Sequence record: MT446421.1
Length of the DNA: 64,000 nucleotides
Reading direction: 5' to 3' (one strand)
Source: Escherichia virus TH55
Shown: one piece after another, positions 652 to 38,596 of the stretch
How positions within the stretch are numbered: the stretch's first letter is position 1
How the letters are laid out: each line of letters opens with the position of its first letter
Made by a program: the position numbers and the translations under genes
The notes under the pieces: generated by a model
Told to the model about the DNA's origin: nothing
What the model saw: only the letters and a program-made list of their open reading frames with translations
Database searches by the model: none

Positions 652-741
652 GCATTGATAAGCACTAAACTATACTGCGAATAAAATTCTGGACCAAAAT
701 GAAAAATCATATCATTTATAGTATCCATAATATAATTAAAT

Positions 742-1212
742 TTAATCATGTTTCCACACCCCATCGGTATTTGACCAAAGTCGCTGATTATCTGACCCTC
801 GCCACAGTTTTTTGGTCGGAAGATTTTTCTCATACTTCCCATCAATAATAACATCAACATATTTAAGCATTTCTAGTTGTTTAATATCTTCAAACTTATA
901 TCCTGTCCACATCCAAATGCTTTTATTTGGATAAAGATTTTTAACAGTTTGAACCACAGAGTGAATAACATCTCGGTTATCAGGATAGAGAGGGTCTCCT
1001 CCAGTTATAGTTAATCCTTCTATATAATCATTATTCAAACATTCAATTAATTGTTCTAGTGTTTCACCAGTGAATGGAACCCCATTTCTAGCATTCCATG
1101 TTGATTTATTATAACACCCTTCACATTTATGCAAACAACCTGTAACGAAAAGAACGACCCTGCATCCAGGGCCATTCACAAAATCACAAGGATAAAATCT
1201 ATCATAATTCAT
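742..1212 (-). CDS. nrdG: anaerobic ribonucleotide reductase activating protein (radical SAM)
   Basis: 156 aa; radical-SAM Cys cluster CLHKCEGC; same length and position (immediately downstream of nrdD) as T4 NrdG; ATGA overlap with nrdD. Confidence 0.9.
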   Translation of the reverse strand: MNYDRFYPCDFVNGPGCRVVLFVTGCLHKCEGCYNKSTWNARNGVPFTGETLEQLIECLNNDYIEGLTITGGDPLYPDNRDVIHSVVQTVKNLYPNKSIWMWTGYKFEDIKQLEMLKYVDVIIDGKYEKNLPTKKLWRGSDNQRLWSNTDGVWKHD

Positions 1213-3026
1213 TGGTGTTTAACCCTATGCATGATTTCTTTATTTTTGCCGAGATTAAATCCACGTTCGTTCGGATTTCCCAAATAACCGCAAGTTCTTC
1301 TTATTGTGTTCATCTTTTTAGGGTCAGTTTCTCCACAAATAGAACAAACAAATCCGTTTTCAGTAGGAGTCATTTCATGGGTACTTCCACACGTAAAACA
1401 TTTATCTACTGGCATATTAACACCAAAATAATCTAAATGTTGCGCGGCATAATCCCATACAGCCTCAAGACCTTTTAAGTTATTTTTCATATCAGGAAGT
1501 TCAACATAAGAAATGTGACCACCTGTCGCAATGAAATGATATGGGGCTTCGCGAGAAATCTTTTCAAACGGAGTAATATTTTCTTCTACTGAAACGTGGA
1601 AACTGTTAGTGTACCATCCTTTATCGGTAACATCTTTTACACTTCCATATTTTTCAGTATCAAGTTTACAGAAGCGATAACAAAGGTTTTCAGCAGGTGT
1701 AGAATACAAACTAAAAGCAAAACCGGTTCTTTCAGTCCACTGCTTAAGACGAGCATTCATTTTAGTTAAAATTTCTTGCCCAATATCACGACCGGCAAGA
1801 ATATTCAATTCGTGAATACCAATGTATCCCAAAGACACTGAACTTCTACCGTTTTTAAATAACTCAATTATATCATCATCAGGTTTAAGACGAACCCCGA
1901 ATGCACCTTCTTGGTAAAGAATAGGAGCAACAGTCGCTTTAACTCCTTTTAAAGAACTAATTCTACACATCAAAGCTTCAAAACACAAATCCATTCGCTC
2001 ATTGAACAATTCGATAAATTTCTGTTCATTGAACTGTGTTCCAATATAAGAATCTAACGCAATGCGAGGAAGATTCAGTGTTACAACACCAAGATTATTA
2101 CGTCCATCAAGAATTTCATTACCAGTCGAATCTTTCCATACGCCCAAGAAACTACGGCAACCCATTGGAGAAACAGGAATAGATGAACCAGTGATAGCTT
2201 TATTGTTCTTAGCTGAAATAATATCAGGATACATTCTTTTGCTTGCACACTCTAGAGCAAGCTGCTTAATATCATAGTTCGGGTCGTCTTTATAAAGATT
2301 AACACCTTCTTCAACGAACATAACAAGTTTAGGGAAAATAGGAGTTATCCCATCGCGACCAAGACCTTTGATACGATTTTTCAGAATTGCTTTCTGAATC
2401 ATTCGTTCAGTCCAGTCAGTTCCCGTGCCAAACGTAATTGTCACAAAAGGCGTTTGCCCATTTGAACTAAAGAGCGTATTTACTTCATATTCATAAGCTT
2501 GGAATGCATCGTATACGTCTTTTTCTGTTTTAGATTGGGCATAATTCAATGCATCAGTGATTTGCCATTTTTCTGCATCTTCAATATGTTTTGCGTATGT
2601 ACGTTTAACATAAGGAGAAAATACTTTGTCTACATTAGCAAAAGTCGTTCCGCCATATTGGTGAGAAGCAACCTGTGCAGTAATTTGTGCCATAATTGCA
2701 GTAGCAACACCGATTGATTTAGGAGTTTCAATCTGTGCATTACCAAGCTTAAATCCGTTCTCAAGCATTCCTTTTAAATCTACTAAACAGCAATTAGTAA
2801 ATGGAAGAGCAGGGGAATAATCAATATCATGGAAATGAATAATTCCACTTTCATGTGCTTTCATAATAAAAGACGCGACCATATTTTTGGCAATGTGTTT
2901 AGATACAATACCAGCCATAAGGTCCCGTTGAGTTGGAAAAACACGAGAATCTTTATTAGCATTCTCGTTTAAAAGGTCTTTATTAGTTTTATGAATCAAT
3001 CCTTCAATTTCGTTTTCAATTGTCAT
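1209..3026 (-). CDS. nrdD: anaerobic ribonucleoside-triphosphate reductase large subunit
   Basis: 605 aa; C-terminal glycyl-radical motif RTCGYLG and zinc ribbon CFTCG...CSICG; length equals T4 NrdD; ORF uninterrupted. Confidence 0.93.
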   Translation of the reverse strand: MTIENEIEGLIHKTNKDLLNENANKDSRVFPTQRDLMAGIVSKHIAKNMVASFIMKAHESGIIHFHDIDYSPALPFTNCCLVDLKGMLENGFKLGNAQIETPKSIGVATAIMAQITAQVASHQYGGTTFANVDKVFSPYVKRTYAKHIEDAEKWQITDALNYAQSKTEKDVYDAFQAYEYEVNTLFSSNGQTPFVTITFGTGTDWTERMIQKAILKNRIKGLGRDGITPIFPKLVMFVEEGVNLYKDDPNYDIKQLALECASKRMYPDIISAKNNKAITGSSIPVSPMGCRSFLGVWKDSTGNEILDGRNNLGVVTLNLPRIALDSYIGTQFNEQKFIELFNERMDLCFEALMCRISSLKGVKATVAPILYQEGAFGVRLKPDDDIIELFKNGRSSVSLGYIGIHELNILAGRDIGQEILTKMNARLKQWTERTGFAFSLYSTPAENLCYRFCKLDTEKYGSVKDVTDKGWYTNSFHVSVEENITPFEKISREAPYHFIATGGHISYVELPDMKNNLKGLEAVWDYAAQHLDYFGVNMPVDKCFTCGSTHEMTPTENGFVCSICGETDPKKMNTIRRTCGYLGNPNERGFNLGKNKEIMHRVKHQ

Positions 3027-3496
3027 TTTAAACTCTTTCTAAGCTGCTTCTTAAATGAAGCCATTAATTGTGTTTTGGTGTCAGATTCATTATAAGTCAT
3101 ACCATTCAAAAGCATTTCCCGAATCATTTCTTCTTTCCCCAGACGACCGAACTCTTTGGCTTTGTCTGTTACAAAATTGGGGTGAATATTGTTTTCGGTA
3201 TAATCAGATTTCAGATAGACAAGCAAACTCTCTAACCATTCCAGGTAGTCAACATCGCGACTTTTCAGACCCGAACGGCTGAACTTATGCTTCATTTGTC
3301 CTTCTGTCCCATTGCACAGATTGCATAGTAACCCGCGAACCTTACCAGCTTTTGGCCCGTTCAATTCGTGGTCATGGTCAAGATGGTTGGCCTGAACATC
3401 GGAGTCCAAATCACGGTGGCAAATTGGACACTTACCAGCTTGTGCATCATAAAGTTTTTGTTTTTCTTCTTTGTATAATTTGCCAGTCAACAACAT
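3023..3496 (-). CDS. 49: endonuclease VII (Holliday junction resolvase)
   Basis: 157 aa; near-identical to remembered T4 gp49 (MLLTGKLYKEEKQKLYDAQ...CNLCN...); zinc-binding CxxC/H-N-H core; adjacent to nrdD as in T4. Confidence 0.93.
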   Translation of the reverse strand: MLLTGKLYKEEKQKLYDAQAGKCPICHRDLDSDVQANHLDHDHELNGPKAGKVRGLLCNLCNGTEGQMKHKFSRSGLKSRDVDYLEWLESLLVYLKSDYTENNIHPNFVTDKAKEFGRLGKEEMIREMLLNGMTYNESDTKTQLMASFKKQLRKSLK

Positions 3497-3704
3497 AATA
3501 AACCCTTACCATTATTAGATAAGGGTATTTATTAAATCTTATAAAACGCGCGGTGTAACCGTTTAAATTGACGAATCATCTTTTTAGTAGGACGAGTATA
3601 CAATCCTACACAGGTGGCCATAAACTGGTCGGTAGGACTTCCTTTAATAAGAAGTTTCCAGACCTTGACACCATTTAACTTTTCGGTATAGACTAATGCA
3701 GTTT

Positions 3705-4007
3705 TCATGCGACCTCAAATTCATTATCATCGTTAGTCCAAAAACACCAGAATGAAGCTTTAGTATCTTCAAACATTTCTTTAGTGTATTCGTATACCTT
3801 ACCATTGAATTCGATAGCAGTTACGCCAATGATTTCAGGATTGCCCCATGGAGAAATCTCCACCTTCAAGATTTTAACTTCAGCACCTTCACAGAGCTCG
3901 CCTGACTCAAAACCGCGATTGCCGTTTAATTCAGGCCAGTCAACATAATGGTCAACATCTTCTTCAGTAATACGAACAGTTTTACCTTCAAATTCAAATA
4001 AATTCAT
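3705..4007 (-). CDS. hypothetical protein (100 aa)
   Basis: Minus-strand ORF in 49-nrdC interval (region of pin/49.x small genes in T4); no motif recognised. Confidence 0.5.
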   Translation of the reverse strand: MNLFEFEGKTVRITEEDVDHYVDWPELNGNRGFESGELCEGAEVKILKVEISPWGNPEIIGVTAIEFNGKVYEYTKEMFEDTKASFWCFWTNDDNEFEVA

Positions 4008-4297
4008 CAGAAGGCCTCATCAGCAAAGCGAAGTTGAGCTTCAAGCCAATGGATATAATCCGCCGCGGCAAAAATTAAAGCAGATTCTTCATCAGGTAAC
4101 TTACGGGAATCCGACAGTTCATAAAGTGATTTTTCAATCAGGCGGCCTTTATGACGGCCAATTTCAATTTTGGTACTCATATCCAAACTCCATATCGATT
4201 AAATCATTGTTTGAAGGTTCATTATAATCTATTTCGGAATCGTTGTAAACAGGTTCCTCTGGCTCGACGGTTTCCCATCGAGCGGTATACCATGGTT

Positions 4298-31036: not shown

Positions 31037-31113
31037 TGGTCGGGGTGGTGGGATTCTAACCCACAACCTACGGTTTAGAAGACCGTTGCTCTATACAATT
31101 GAGCTACACCCCG
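31037..31113 (-). tRNA. tRNA-Arg (anticodon UCU)
   Basis: Hand-folded cloverleaf: 7-bp acceptor CGGGGTG/CACCCCG, D-stem GCTC/GAGC, anticodon stem ACGGT/ACCGT with loop CUUCUAA, T-stem GTGGG/CCCAC, encoded CCA; T-loop is UUAGAAU (A at conserved C56 position). Confidence 0.75.
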
Positions 31114-31189
31114 GGTGGCCCCATCCGGACTTGAACCGGAAACCTGCCAGTTATGAGCCGGATGCTCTAACCAATTGAGCTACAGGGCC
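31114..31189 (-). tRNA. tRNA with CAU anticodon (Met, or Ile if lysidine-modified)
   Basis: Hand-folded: acceptor GGCCCTG/TGGGGCC (two G-U pairs), D-stem GCTC/GAGC, anticodon loop CUCAUAA, T-arm TCCGG-TTCAAGT-CCGGA; abuts tRNA-Arg with no spacer. Confidence 0.75.
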
Positions 31190-35981: not shown

Positions 35982-36656
35982 TTATTTTATTAATGTGTTA
36001 AGTCTTAGCTTAGTCATAAACGGATAACGTTCCAACATTGGCTTTACCCAGTATCGAGGATGCAATTCCTTTTTATATGCTAAGACCAACTCTCGAGCTT
36101 GCTCGACGGTATCAACTCCGAAGTTTTTACACATTTCTTGCCTATCTTTTTCCCACCGGCGCTTTCTCAATTCATCCTGAATCTCTTTATTTTTAAAATG
36201 ACCATTATTGCGAGAATGTTTTGTACCCTTGGTTGGACTGTAATGTCTTCCTTTGACAAACCCATCCGGAATATTTTCCCATGGAAATAGTTTTATCGAT
36301 TTGACACCATTATTAAAGTAAACTTTACCGGTTTGACTTTTAGAAATATTGTCAGCGTGTCTACGTCTTAACCAACCAAATAATTTATTATTGCGTTTCA
36401 AATACTTGCTTGACTGGCACATGGATGTAGCAGCAAAACTTAAACCTGGATTTGTAGGATATATTTTAACCAATAGTTGATGGGCTACATAATGTTCCTC
36501 AGGAGTCAAATCGACCAGATTATCTGGGTCATTTGAACCACCCATACATTTCGGAATGATGTGATGAGATTCTTTATATGAAATCAGGACCCTGTTACGG
36601 GCCCTTTCAATTAACGATGAATATATAAACTGATAATTCAAAGTGAATTTCTCCAT
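35982..36656 (-). CDS. free-standing HNH homing endonuclease
   Basis: 224 aa; HNH core [29 protein letters not shown]; inserted between genes 3 and 2. Confidence 0.75.
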
Positions 36657-37465
36657 ACTTTCTGGGAAGAATATCTTTTGCCTTTTGAAAAAAACTGCTG
36701 AAGGGGGAGTAATACCACATTTGCCCAGTCGCTGGGCTTGATTTCAGTGATAGTACCTTTTATATTGCCGGGTATATATGCTTTAATCATCTGGTCAGCC
36801 CCTTTAAATCCCTTCACCTTTGACCAATCAATCTTCAGATGAGTCTTGTTTGTAATCGTAGGAGTATTAGCATATTGCTTAAGAAGTTCCTCAAGGAACT
36901 CTTGACGTGCCTTCGGTGGAATATAGTGCAAGTTCAAACCGTACATCAAATTATGCTTACCTAGACCAAGATAAATGATTAACGGATATTTGTCCCAGTA
37001 TGGAAGAGTATCCTTATGCTTTGCATCATAGATATAAGCATAAAGTTTACCTGGTTGAGGTTTAGCCGTTACGTGGCCGCGAACTGATTTCTTAATTGTC
37101 TCTGCGAACCATCTGGCAGATTTGGTGTTGCTTGCAGCGCCTTCGTTAGCAATCTTATCTCTTATGCTCTTCCTAAAGCTATTCACCATTATCAGCTGGC
37201 GTTCAGCCTTCGTAAGTTTACCAGCAGGTTTCTTTTTGAGCTTGGATACTTTATAAGCAGTCTGAATTCTTGAATGATACCTCGACATGCTTTTGGTAAA
37301 GGTCGAATAGTTGATTCCTTTCTCTTCAGCAAACTTCTTCGAGGTCATTCCTTTTTCTTTTGCTGTATAAAATTCAACCCCTATCTCAACCCATTGTTGT
37401 TCTGATTTACTGGGTTTCGGACCTGGTTTATCTGCAGATTCATTGATAAATGTAAAAATACTCAT
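36638..37465 (-). CDS. 2: DNA end protector protein gp2
   Basis: About 275 aa from MSIFTF; position between 3 and 4; ATGA coupling with gene 4; assigned by synteny and length. Confidence 0.7.
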
Positions 37466-37911
37466 CCTTTCCATCCTAATTTTTTCAGGCCGTTTTCGGT
37501 TAGAATGCGAAATGTAATACCCATTTTATCTGCGGTAGCTTGTGCAGCTTTCCACTTATCCCTGTTCACAGAATAAGTGTACATTTCGTTTATATAACGT
37601 TTCTTACTGGCTGCTGTATTATTTACAGGAATTTTTGGGGGCTGTGTTTCTTTGAATGGTTTTATTTCAATAAAAAATTGCTGGCCGGTATCAAATTTAC
37701 ACCATATATCCATATAGTAACGGCGCTTTTTGCCATCAGCATTGCTAAAATATGGAATAACAACAGTCTCAGAACCCCATTGAACAACATTGGGGTGAGT
37801 GTCGAGCCACTTGAACATATATGCCTCCCAACTCGACCTGTACTGTATTTTCTTCCAATCACCTTTATATTTTTCTAGATTTGTTGGTTTAAACTTCCCG
37901 GAGTACGCCAT
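37462..37911 (-). CDS. 4: head completion protein gp4
   Basis: About 149 aa from MAYSGKFKP (T4 gp4-like N-terminus and length). Confidence 0.75.
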
Positions 37912-38596
37912 TTTTAAGTACCTTACAATTTTCACCATGCCAACGTTTATAGTTGCCTGGATTTGTTATTTTTCCACAGTGTTCACAGGTGTGACGGGGA
38001 GCATTTTTATTAAGCTCTGATAAACGTTTTCTGACATCATCAGTAATACCTTGCTTTATTTTCTCGCTATGATTTACCAAAACTCTTTCTTTATTTGCCT
38101 TGGATATTTTTGCTCGCCAATCATCTGTAAACACTCTTTCTGATAATTTCTTACAATGTTCTTCAGAGAACTTTTTACCCTTTGCTGCTTCTGACAACTT
38201 TTTGCAATGCTCTTCAGAGCGCGGGCCATATTTCTTACCTTTAAGAGCTTTTGAAATATTTTCACATGTTTGTTTTGAACGTTTACGTCCAGTGTGAAAC
38301 TTAATGGAAGTCTCAACAGCGCGGATGCGCACCCATTCAAATTGTTTGTTATTGTAATTGTTGGAACCCATTAGAATTTTCGCAGCATGTGCTAACGAGT
38401 GATTATCTGGATAAATTTTAACCAATAACAGGTGGGCGACAAAATGTTCAGGAGCGGTAAGCTCGACTAAATTTTCATCAGTATCTAATCCGCCCATACA
38501 TCTTGGAATAATGTGATGTTTCTCTTTGTAACCATCAATGGGTGCTCGATTTTTAGCTCGTTGGATTAAGTTATTGTAATGTTTTAGATAGTTCAT
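37889..38596 (-). CDS. free-standing HNH homing endonuclease with NUMOD3-like repeats
   Basis: 235 aa; HNH core HHIIPRCMGGLDTDENLVELTAPEHFVAH; two repeats SEEHCKKLSEAAKGKK; C-terminal CxxC; minus-strand TATAAATA at 38615-38622; inserted between 4 and 53. Confidence 0.75.
   Translation of the reverse strand: MNYLKHYNNLIQRAKNRAPIDGYKEKHHIIPRCMGGLDTDENLVELTAPEHFVAHLLLVKIYPDNHSLAHAAKILMGSNNYNNKQFEWVRIRAVETSIKFHTGRKRSKQTCENISKALKGKKYGPRSEEHCKKLSEAAKGKKFSEEHCKKLSERVFTDDWRAKISKANKERVLVNHSEKIKQGITDDVRKRLSELNKNAPRHTCEHCGKITNPGNYKRWHGENCKVLKNGVLREV

What the first reader, a model, noticed from the sequence alone, without database searches (positions are those of the whole stretch)
1209..3026. nrdD is uninterrupted (no group I intron or intron-encoded endonuclease)
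From my recollection, T4 nrdD carries a self-splicing intron with a homing endonuclease. Here the 605-aa frame is continuous, so this phage is intron-minus at that locus and would be a potential recipient in a mixed infection.
Basis: partly seen in the sequence, partly recalled or inferred. Interest (0 to 1): 0.2.

Follow-up and report, generated by a model that had tools for sequence, protein, structure and literature searches.

The report
Ordinary intron-free phage nrdD gene
This T4-like phage has an unbroken gene for the anaerobic ribonucleotide reductase where phage T4 carries a mobile self-splicing intron; this is the usual state among T4 relatives (about nine in ten), so the finding is correct but ordinary.

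Summary
Window 1209..3026 (minus strand) is one 605-aa frame encoding NrdD, 594/605 residues identical to T4 NrdD, with all catalytic and zinc-site residues kept. T4's 1033-nt group I intron, which carries I-TevII, sits after gene nucleotide 538 (codon Tyr180, first base). In the window that point lies between 2489 and 2488, and the sequence runs through it with no gap, frameshift or extra base. Covariance-model scans find no group I intron anywhere in the 64 kb. The window is 100% identical here to deposited phages TH22 and UPEC07 (Gaprivervirus), where nrdD is already annotated as one gene.

Being intron-free is the norm. Of 691 phage records matching a 300-nt probe across the site, 616 are uninterrupted, 25 carry the T4-type intron and 44 carry a second, 66%-identical intron at the same point.

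The "potential recipient" idea is plausible but untested. The 30-bp site matches intron-less T2/T6 at 29/30 positions and T4's exon junction at 24/30. It carries none of the flank markers seen in all ten intron-plus alleles I aligned, and its flanks are about 95% identical to T4, enough for repair. There is also no mobC-like endonuclease gene between nrdD and nrdG. Already known; low interest.

The parts
1209..3026 (-). nrdD, anaerobic (class III) ribonucleoside-triphosphate reductase large subunit; a single uninterrupted 605-codon frame
   Evidence: ORF list; Pfam NRDD 568 bits and Gly_radical; PDB 1h78_A full-length match at 1387.7 bits; 594/605 aa and 1722/1818 nt identical to spliced T4 nrdD, with C79, C290, N311, C543, C546, C561, C564 and G580 conserved
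2488..2489 (-). Position equivalent to the T4 nrdD intron insertion point (between gene nt 538 and 539, after the first base of codon Tyr180); empty here
   Evidence: blastn blocks; junction reconstruction; coordinate conversion
2469..2498 (-). 30-bp intron-less junction (-10..+20), GCTTATGAAT|ATGAAGTAAATACGCTCTTT, the presumed homing-site equivalent for I-TevII-type endonucleases
   Evidence: Flank alignment of 20 alleles: 29/30 identical to T2/T6 and 24/30 to the T4 spliced junction. It has A at -2, as do all 10 uninterrupted alleles aligned, where all 10 intron-plus alleles have G. IMG/VR scan: 19 uninterrupted junctions with A(-2), none with G(-2)
742..1212 (-). nrdG, radical-SAM activase of NrdD; its ATG overlaps the nrdD stop (ATGA), which leaves no room for a mobC/segH-type endonuclease gene
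   Evidence: ORF list; Pfam Fer4_12 167 bits and Radical_SAM; junction sequence; T4 has mobC at this spot, and T6 and F2 have a different 244-aa endonuclease ORF there
3023..3496 (-). Gene 49, endonuclease VII; its stop overlaps the nrdD start (ATGA), the same upstream neighbour as in T4
   Evidence: ORF list; Pfam Endonuclease_7 and Endonuc-dimeris; T4 synteny

Best explanation
This is the ordinary intron-less allele of nrdD in a Gaprivervirus (SP18/VR20-like T-even relative; the sequence is identical to phages TH22 and UPEC07). The gene is translated directly into a functional-looking class III ribonucleotide reductase large subunit, is apparently coupled to gene 49 upstream and nrdG downstream through 4-nt ATGA overlaps, and needs no RNA splicing. 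The position where T4 (and about 10% of sequenced relatives) carries a mobile group I intron is empty. The flanks show none of the exon markers that travel with either intron lineage, so the allele looks never-invaded rather than one that lost its intron. Because the site is intact and the flanks are about 95% identical to intron-plus phages, the expected behaviour in a co-infection with an intron-plus phage is the following. The I-TevII-type endonuclease cuts just downstream of the insertion point, the break is resected, and repair copies the intron together with a short stretch of donor exon. Shown here: the continuity of the gene, the exact site, the absence of any intron or I-TevII gene, and the population frequencies. 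Inferred: susceptibility to cleavage and homing.
For: Continuous 605-aa frame. Exact placement of the T4 intron with no gap in the window. No RF00028 hit in 64 kb with default or permissive filters, while positive controls score 105 bits (T4) and 70.9 bits (JEP6). 100% identity to TH22/UPEC07, where nrdD is annotated as one CDS. All 23 listed relatives with at least 95% identity align in one piece. 616 of 691 records are uninterrupted across the site, 25 carry the T4-type intron and 44 the JEP6-type. In the flank table, all 10 intron-plus alleles have G at -2 and their type-specific markers, and the window has none of these except +14 G. Zero uninterrupted junctions with G(-2) in IMG/VR against 19 with A(-2). 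tblastn with I-TevII and its JEP6 homolog finds only a 36-44 aa motif match inside an unrelated HNH ORF. The homing mechanism (double-strand break, resection, co-conversion) and the mobility of the nrdD intron come from PMC2988022 and PMC1865063.
Against: Cleavage of this particular site by I-TevII has not been tested. It differs from T4's own exon junction at 6 of 30 positions (-2, +8, +11, +15, +17, +20), clustered around the place where, from my memory of Bell-Pedersen et al. 1990, I-TevII cuts (+13 to +15). I could not read the primary I-TevII specificity papers. Whether this phage and an intron-plus phage co-infect the same cell productively is unknown. The window shares G at +14 with T4-type alleles, a weak hint of past exchange.
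Confidence: 0.88

Rival explanations
1. Secondary loss: an ancestor of this phage carried the nrdD intron and lost it precisely, for example by recombination with an intron-less allele or with a spliced-RNA copy.
For: The window has G at +14 (ACG), as all T4-type intron-plus alleles do, whereas the other nine uninterrupted alleles aligned have T. Recombination among T-evens is frequent, and marker exclusion and co-conversion are described in PMC2988022.
Against: The window lacks every other intron-linked marker: -2 G, +8 G, +11 C, +15 T, +17 A, +20 C for the T4 type; -8/-11 G, +14 A, +17 T, +20 C for the JEP6 type. A precise RNA-mediated loss would keep G at -2, yet no uninterrupted junction with G(-2) exists in IMG/VR. 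All 23 listed close relatives are intron-less as well. A single third-codon-position match is easily chance.
Confidence: 0.07
2. Target-site immunity: the silent differences around the insertion point make this allele a poor substrate for I-TevII, so the phage stays intron-free because it cannot be cut, and it is not a recipient.
For: There are six differences from T4's exon junction within -2..+20. The same A(-2) junction is conserved even in relatives with only about 73% nucleotide identity.
Against: These same bases are the consensus of essentially all intron-less alleles, including T2 and T6. An endonuclease that spreads must cut the common intron-less allele, and T4-type introns are found in varied backgrounds (Yersinia phage PST, Salmonella phage Manna, EC128, G8). 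The T4-side differences are better explained as donor exon sequence co-converted with the intron, since they lie between the insertion point and the cut site. All six differences are synonymous, and the encoded peptide is identical in every allele aligned, intron-plus or intron-less. Conservation of the junction in distant relatives therefore fits protein constraint better than selection for resistance.
Confidence: 0.08
3. Artefact: the intron was dropped by assembly or the sequence derives from processed RNA.
For: None found.
Against: The 2851-nt stretch is identical in two independently deposited phage genomes, from the USA (TH series) and Uganda (UPEC07). The same architecture appears in more than 600 records. 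Composition is uniform across the gene.
Confidence: 0.01

Closest known systems
nrdD of Escherichia phages TH22 (MT446396) and UPEC07 (MW250787), genus Gaprivervirus; near relatives SP18, VR20, VR25
   Same: 100% nucleotide identity over window 700-3550. Same gene order, 49 - nrdD - nrdG. nrdD is annotated as a single 1818-nt CDS in UPEC07.
   Different: Nothing over the 2851-nt stretch compared (window 700-3550); the window appears to be this phage or an indistinguishable isolate there.
nrdD of phages T2 (PV958097) and T6 (AP018814), the classical intron-less T-evens
   Same: Uninterrupted 1818-nt gene, about 95-96% nucleotide identity, and the 30-bp junction is 29/30 identical. T2 also has nrdG abutting nrdD directly.
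   Different: One base at +14 (window G, T2/T6 T). T6 has a 244-aa endonuclease ORF between nrdD and nrdG that the window lacks.
T4 nrdD (sunY) with its group IA intron and I-TevII (NC_000866 43535-46385)
   Same: Exons are 94.7% identical in nucleotides and 98.2% in protein; the neighbours are gene 49 and nrdG.
   Different: T4 has a 1033-nt intron after nt 538 encoding the 258-aa GIY-YIG endonuclease I-TevII, six linked exon substitutions at -2..+20, and the HNH gene mobC between nrdD and nrdG. The window has none of these.
JEP6/F2-type nrdD intron (e.g. MT764206, NC_054913, Mosigvirus TH58)
   Same: It uses exactly the same insertion point in the same gene, so the window's site is also the empty site for this element.
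   Different: It is a 1045-nt group I intron (RF00028, 70.9 bits), only 66% identical to T4's. Its endonuclease is 56% identical to I-TevII, and it has its own flank markers. It is present in 44 records and absent from the window.

Membership tests
Class III (anaerobic) ribonucleotide reductase large subunit, NrdD | NRDD catalytic domain over the full length | tested here: met
   Pfam PF13597, 568 bits, profile 1-562/562; T4 NrdD structure 1h78_A matched 1-605
Class III (anaerobic) ribonucleotide reductase large subunit, NrdD | C-terminal glycyl-radical domain with the radical glycine (T4 G580, in the RTCGYLG context) | tested here: met
   Pfam Gly_radical 90 bits; G580 in RTCGYLG, identical to T4; the residue's role is from my memory of the T4 NrdD structure papers
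Class III (anaerobic) ribonucleotide reductase large subunit, NrdD | Active-site Cys79, Cys290 and Asn311, and the four-cysteine zinc site (543, 546, 561, 564) | tested here: met
   All eight residues are identical to T4 at those positions
Class III (anaerobic) ribonucleotide reductase large subunit, NrdD | Adjacent radical-SAM activase gene nrdG | tested here: met
   Window 742..1212 (-), Pfam Fer4_12 167 bits and Radical_SAM, overlapping the nrdD stop
Class III (anaerobic) ribonucleotide reductase large subunit, NrdD | Ribonucleotide reduction activity under anaerobiosis | not testable with these tools
   Requires biochemistry
Group I intron in nrdD (Rfam RF00028), T4 or JEP6 type | Catalytic core detectable by the covariance model | tested here: not met
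   No hit in the window at the gathering threshold or with permissive filters at E<=0.01; controls scored 105 bits (T4) and 70.9 bits (JEP6)
Group I intron in nrdD (Rfam RF00028), T4 or JEP6 type | Extra non-coding sequence interrupting the frame at nt 538|539 | tested here: not met
   Ungapped alignment through the site; 1818 nt against 2851 nt in T4 and 2863 nt in JEP6
I-TevII-type intron-encoded GIY-YIG homing endonuclease | A homologous ORF present in the locus | tested here: not met
   tblastn of I-TevII and the JEP6 homolog against the whole window gives only a 36-44 aa match (E about 6e-4) inside an HNH ORF at 38132-38257
I-TevII homing site (recipient allele) | Intact, uninterrupted exon junction at the insertion point | tested here: met
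   GCTTATGAAT|ATGAAGTAAATACGCTCTTT is continuous
I-TevII homing site (recipient allele) | Sequence match to known substrates | tested here: inconclusive
   24/30 identical to the T4 exon junction and 29/30 to T2/T6. That T2-type sites are cut in vivo rests on my memory of Quirk et al. 1989, which is cited in PMC2988022 but could not be read here
I-TevII homing site (recipient allele) | Cleavage by the endonuclease and intron gain in a cross | not testable with these tools
   Needs an enzyme assay or a phage cross
I-TevII homing site (recipient allele) | Flanking homology to a donor sufficient for double-strand-break repair | tested here: met
   536 nt at 95.1% and 1280 nt at 94.6% identity to the T4 exons, both ungapped

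The most novel reading that the evidence does not exclude
The most novel reading not excluded is that the intron-less state here is actively maintained. The conserved silent bases at -2 and +8..+20 would make the site a poor substrate for I-TevII-type enzymes, or a poor P1 pairing partner: A at -2 would give an A-C mismatch with the intron guide sequence GCUCAUG next to the splice site. An intron could then establish only if it brings its own exon flank with it. That would make this 30-bp stretch a small arena of conflict between two competing intron lineages (T4 type and JEP6 type) and the host gene, and the window allele would be the resistant form.
Probability: 0.08. Interest if true: 0.3.

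Novelty: already known. Interest (0 to 1): 0.07.

Why it matters
It matters little. The variable presence of the nrdD (sunY) intron among T-even phages has been known since the late 1980s and was the basis for discovering intron homing (PMC2988022). This very sequence is already deposited and annotated as a single nrdD gene. The practical value is that nrdD in this window should be annotated as one CDS with no join. The phage offers an empty site for both known nrdD intron lineages, which could serve as a natural recipient in homing experiments across genera.

Tried and rejected
- **Primary papers not available.** I tried to read the papers on I-TevII specificity and T-even intron distribution (Sandegren 2005, PMC1275590; Loizos 1994, PMC45360; Bell-Pedersen 1990, PMC331075; Belfort 2009, PMC2781553). 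None is held. The I-TevII cut position (+13 to +15) and the use of T2 as a recipient therefore rest on my memory.
- **Rfam default filters gave a false negative.** They missed the genuine JEP6-type intron although it scores 70.9 bits with permissive filters. I did not rely on the first window scan and repeated it with permissive filters, again with no intron hit.
- **Mismatch clustering is not a usable argument.** I tested whether the T4-versus-window mismatches near the site form an exceptional cluster. They give 6 in 22 nt, but another stretch at gene nt 1008-1030 has 7. I dropped this argument in favour of the perfect association between intron state and flank markers across the 20 alleles aligned.
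- **No footprint of precise intron loss.** I searched IMG/VR for uninterrupted junctions carrying G(-2) and found none.
- **Limited yield from the search for related loci.** The NrdD protein query returned only 21 loci, so population counts come from the GenBank phage collection instead.
- **Two literature queries failed** on the 3-character term rule.

Full report
**Observation.** The ORF listing gives a single ATG-initiated ORF of 605 aa at 1209..3026 on the minus strand. The longest ORF on the opposite strand within it is 74 aa. It is NrdD, the large subunit of the anaerobic (class III) ribonucleotide reductase:
- Pfam NRDD scores 568 bits over the whole profile, and Gly_radical scores 90 bits.
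- The solved T4 NrdD structure (1h78_A) matches residues 1-605 to 1-605 at 1387.7 bits.
- Against spliced T4 NrdD, 594 of 605 residues are identical.
- C79, C290, N311, the four zinc-site cysteines and the radical glycine G580 are all conserved.

The neighbours are the same as in T4. Gene 49 (endonuclease VII, 3023..3496) lies upstream and nrdG (742..1212) lies downstream, each overlapping nrdD by a 4-nt ATGA.

**Where the T4 intron would be.** In T4 RefSeq, nrdD is a two-piece join spanning 2851 nt, with the I-TevII gene inside it. Rfam's group I intron model scores 105 bits there. blastn of the window gene against that span gives two ungapped blocks: nt 1-536 = T4 1-536 (95.1%) and nt 539-1818 = T4 1572-2851 (94.6%). 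Reconstruction of the splice junction places the intron after gene nt 538: exon 1 ends ...GCTTATGAGT, the 1033-nt intron runs TAACGTAAG...CACATTG, and exon 2 begins ATGAAGTGAAC. This is the only placement in which the exon ends in U and the intron ends in G. That is the first base of codon Tyr180. In window coordinates the point lies between 2489 and 2488 on the minus strand. The window reads GCTTATGAAT|ATGAAGTAAAT straight through, and it encodes the same peptide, QAYEYEVN.

**No intron or intron endonuclease elsewhere in the window.**
- The gathering-threshold scan of the window found only two tRNAs.
- The default filters turned out to miss a real intron in a control, so I repeated the scan of all 64 kb with permissive filters. 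It again gave no group I hit at E<=0.01.
- tblastn with I-TevII found only a short motif match inside an unrelated HNH ORF.

**What the window is.** Window 700-3550 is 100% identical to Escherichia phages TH22 and UPEC07 (genus Gaprivervirus). It is 95-99% identical to SP18, VR20, VR25 and others. All 23 listed records with at least 95% identity align in a single piece. UPEC07 already annotates nrdD as one 1818-nt CDS.

**How unusual is the intron-less state?** It is not unusual.

| Probe | Records matched | Breakdown |
|---|---|---|
| 300 nt centred on the site | 691 | 616 covered in one piece at >=80% |
| T4 1033-nt intron | 27 | 25 essentially full-length, many of them T4 stocks |
| JEP6-type 1045-nt intron | 360 | 44 complete copies |

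- The split hits led me to a second element. JEP6, F2 and others carry a 1045-nt insertion at exactly the same point.
- That insertion is only 66% identical to the T4 intron, yet it is a genuine group I intron (RF00028, 70.9 bits).
- It encodes a 256-aa GIY-YIG/NUMOD protein 56% identical to I-TevII.
- Its hosts include the Mosigvirus TH58.
- 616 + 25 + 44 accounts for nearly all 691 records. About 89% of comparable nrdD genes are therefore uninterrupted and about 10% carry one of the two introns.
- T2 and T6 are intron-less.
- In IMG/VR, 20 of 21 related loci are uninterrupted; the exception is phage G8, which has the T4-type intron.

**Is it a plausible recipient?** I aligned 60 nt on each side of the site for 20 alleles.
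- All ten uninterrupted alleles (window, T2, T6 and seven IMG/VR contigs) have A at -2.
- All five T4-type alleles (T4, G8, PST, EC128, Manna) have G at -2 plus G+8, C+11, T+15, A+17 and C+20.
- The five JEP6-type alleles have G at -2, and most also have G-8, G-11, A+14, T+17 and C+20.
- The window carries none of these markers except G at +14, which it shares with the T4 type.
- Over -10..+20 the window is 29/30 identical to T2/T6 and 24/30 to T4's exon junction.
- IMG/VR holds 19 uninterrupted junctions with A(-2), including relatives whose nrdD is only about 73% identical in DNA, and none with G(-2).

Read directly from the sequences, G(-2) pairs with the C of the guide sequence GCUCAUG (intron nt 14-20 in both lineages). 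This forms P1 with exon UAUGAGU, and A(-2) would leave an A-C mismatch next to the splice site. This is inference, but it explains why -2 always travels with the intron. The T4-type markers at +8 to +15 lie between the insertion point and the I-TevII cut site (+13 to +15, from my memory of Bell-Pedersen et al. 1990). Double-strand-break repair would therefore necessarily copy them from the donor. The review literature describes this mechanism and the co-conversion of flanking exons (PMC2988022; PMC1865063). On this reading the window allele looks like a never-invaded site, with about 95% flank identity to donors. That supports 'potential recipient', but cleavage itself is untested.

**Rivals.**
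- *Secondary loss of the intron.* Only the single shared base at +14 supports it. The lack of every other marker and the absence of any G(-2) empty site argue against it.
- *Target-site immunity.* It cannot be excluded without an enzyme assay. It is unlikely, because the window's bases are the consensus of the intron-less population that the endonuclease must be able to cut in order to spread, and T4-type introns occur in several distinct phage backgrounds.
- *Assembly artefact.* Identical independent isolates exclude it.

**Other differences from T4 at this locus.** T4 has the HNH gene mobC between nrdD and nrdG. T6 and F2 have a different 244-aa endonuclease ORF there. The window, like T2, has nothing there, because the two genes overlap. 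The whole nrdD-nrdG unit in this phage is therefore free of the selfish elements found in T4.

**Comparison and verdict.** This is a member of the NrdD family by every sequence criterion tested. It is not a member of the 'intron-containing nrdD' class. It is identical over the stretch compared to an already deposited and correctly annotated gene. The variable occurrence of this intron among T-evens is textbook knowledge. The finding is correct, its interpretation is sound, and it is ordinary. Novelty: already known. Interest: about 0.07.

Noticed in passing
window 35982-36656 (-) and 37889-38596 (-): Two ORFs (224 and 235 aa) resemble T4 mobC/mobD HNH homing endonucleases (35-59% identity by tblastn). 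They flank two ORFs at 36638-37474 and 37462-37938. So this phage does carry free-standing homing-endonuclease-like genes even though its nrdD is clean.
   Followed up: partly
L025 2463-3507 (phage JEP6, MT764206); L026 (F2); L032-L034: A second nrdD intron lineage sits at exactly the T4 insertion point. It is 1045 nt, 66% identical to the T4 intron, scores 70.9 bits on RF00028, and its endonuclease is 56% identical to I-TevII. It occurs in 44 phage records spanning Tequatrovirus and Mosigvirus. Its exon-flank markers differ from those of the T4 type.
   Followed up: partly
L025 1900-4800: Rfam's default speed filters returned nothing for a stretch that holds a 70.9-bit group I intron (family cut-off 50). 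The permissive-filter search on 1.2 kb found it. Negative gathering-mode scans for group I introns should not be trusted on their own.
   Followed up: yes
phage records; Salmonella phage GRNsp7 ON720975 142522-142694: Part of the JEP6-type intron matches 360 records, often at a second place in the same genome. T4 intron nt 24-199 matches GRNsp7 at 80% far from its nrdD. These phages seem to hold a related intron core or endonuclease segment in another gene.
   Followed up: no
window 1209-1212; L003 407-1039 (T4 mobC); L028 3517-4251 (T6); L026 4876-5610 (F2): The nrdD-nrdG junction is a polymorphic landing site. It is empty with overlapping genes in the window and T2, holds HNH mobC in T4, and holds a 244-aa NUMOD3/I-TevI-DNA-binding-type ORF in T6 and F2.
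   Followed up: partly
window 3532-4186 (-): Downstream of gene 49 the window differs from T4. It has an extra 58-aa ORF (3532-3708). In place of the 161-aa T4 Pin it has two ORFs of 100 and 59 aa, and only the 59-aa ORF matches Pin (Pin residues 102-145, 39% identity). UPEC07 labels both 'protease inhibitor'.
   Followed up: partly
window 31040-31113 and 31116-31189 (-): Two adjacent tRNA genes (73.7 and 62.2 bits). A sub-threshold 'Plastid-ycf2' hit on the opposite strand of the second is presumably spurious.
   Followed up: no
L028 1611-3428 (phage T6, AP018814): The deposited T6 record labels its nrdD 'RNA ligase 1 and tail fiber attachment catalyst', and neighbouring small ORFs are labelled as baseplate proteins. 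This is evidently an annotation transfer error.
   Followed up: no
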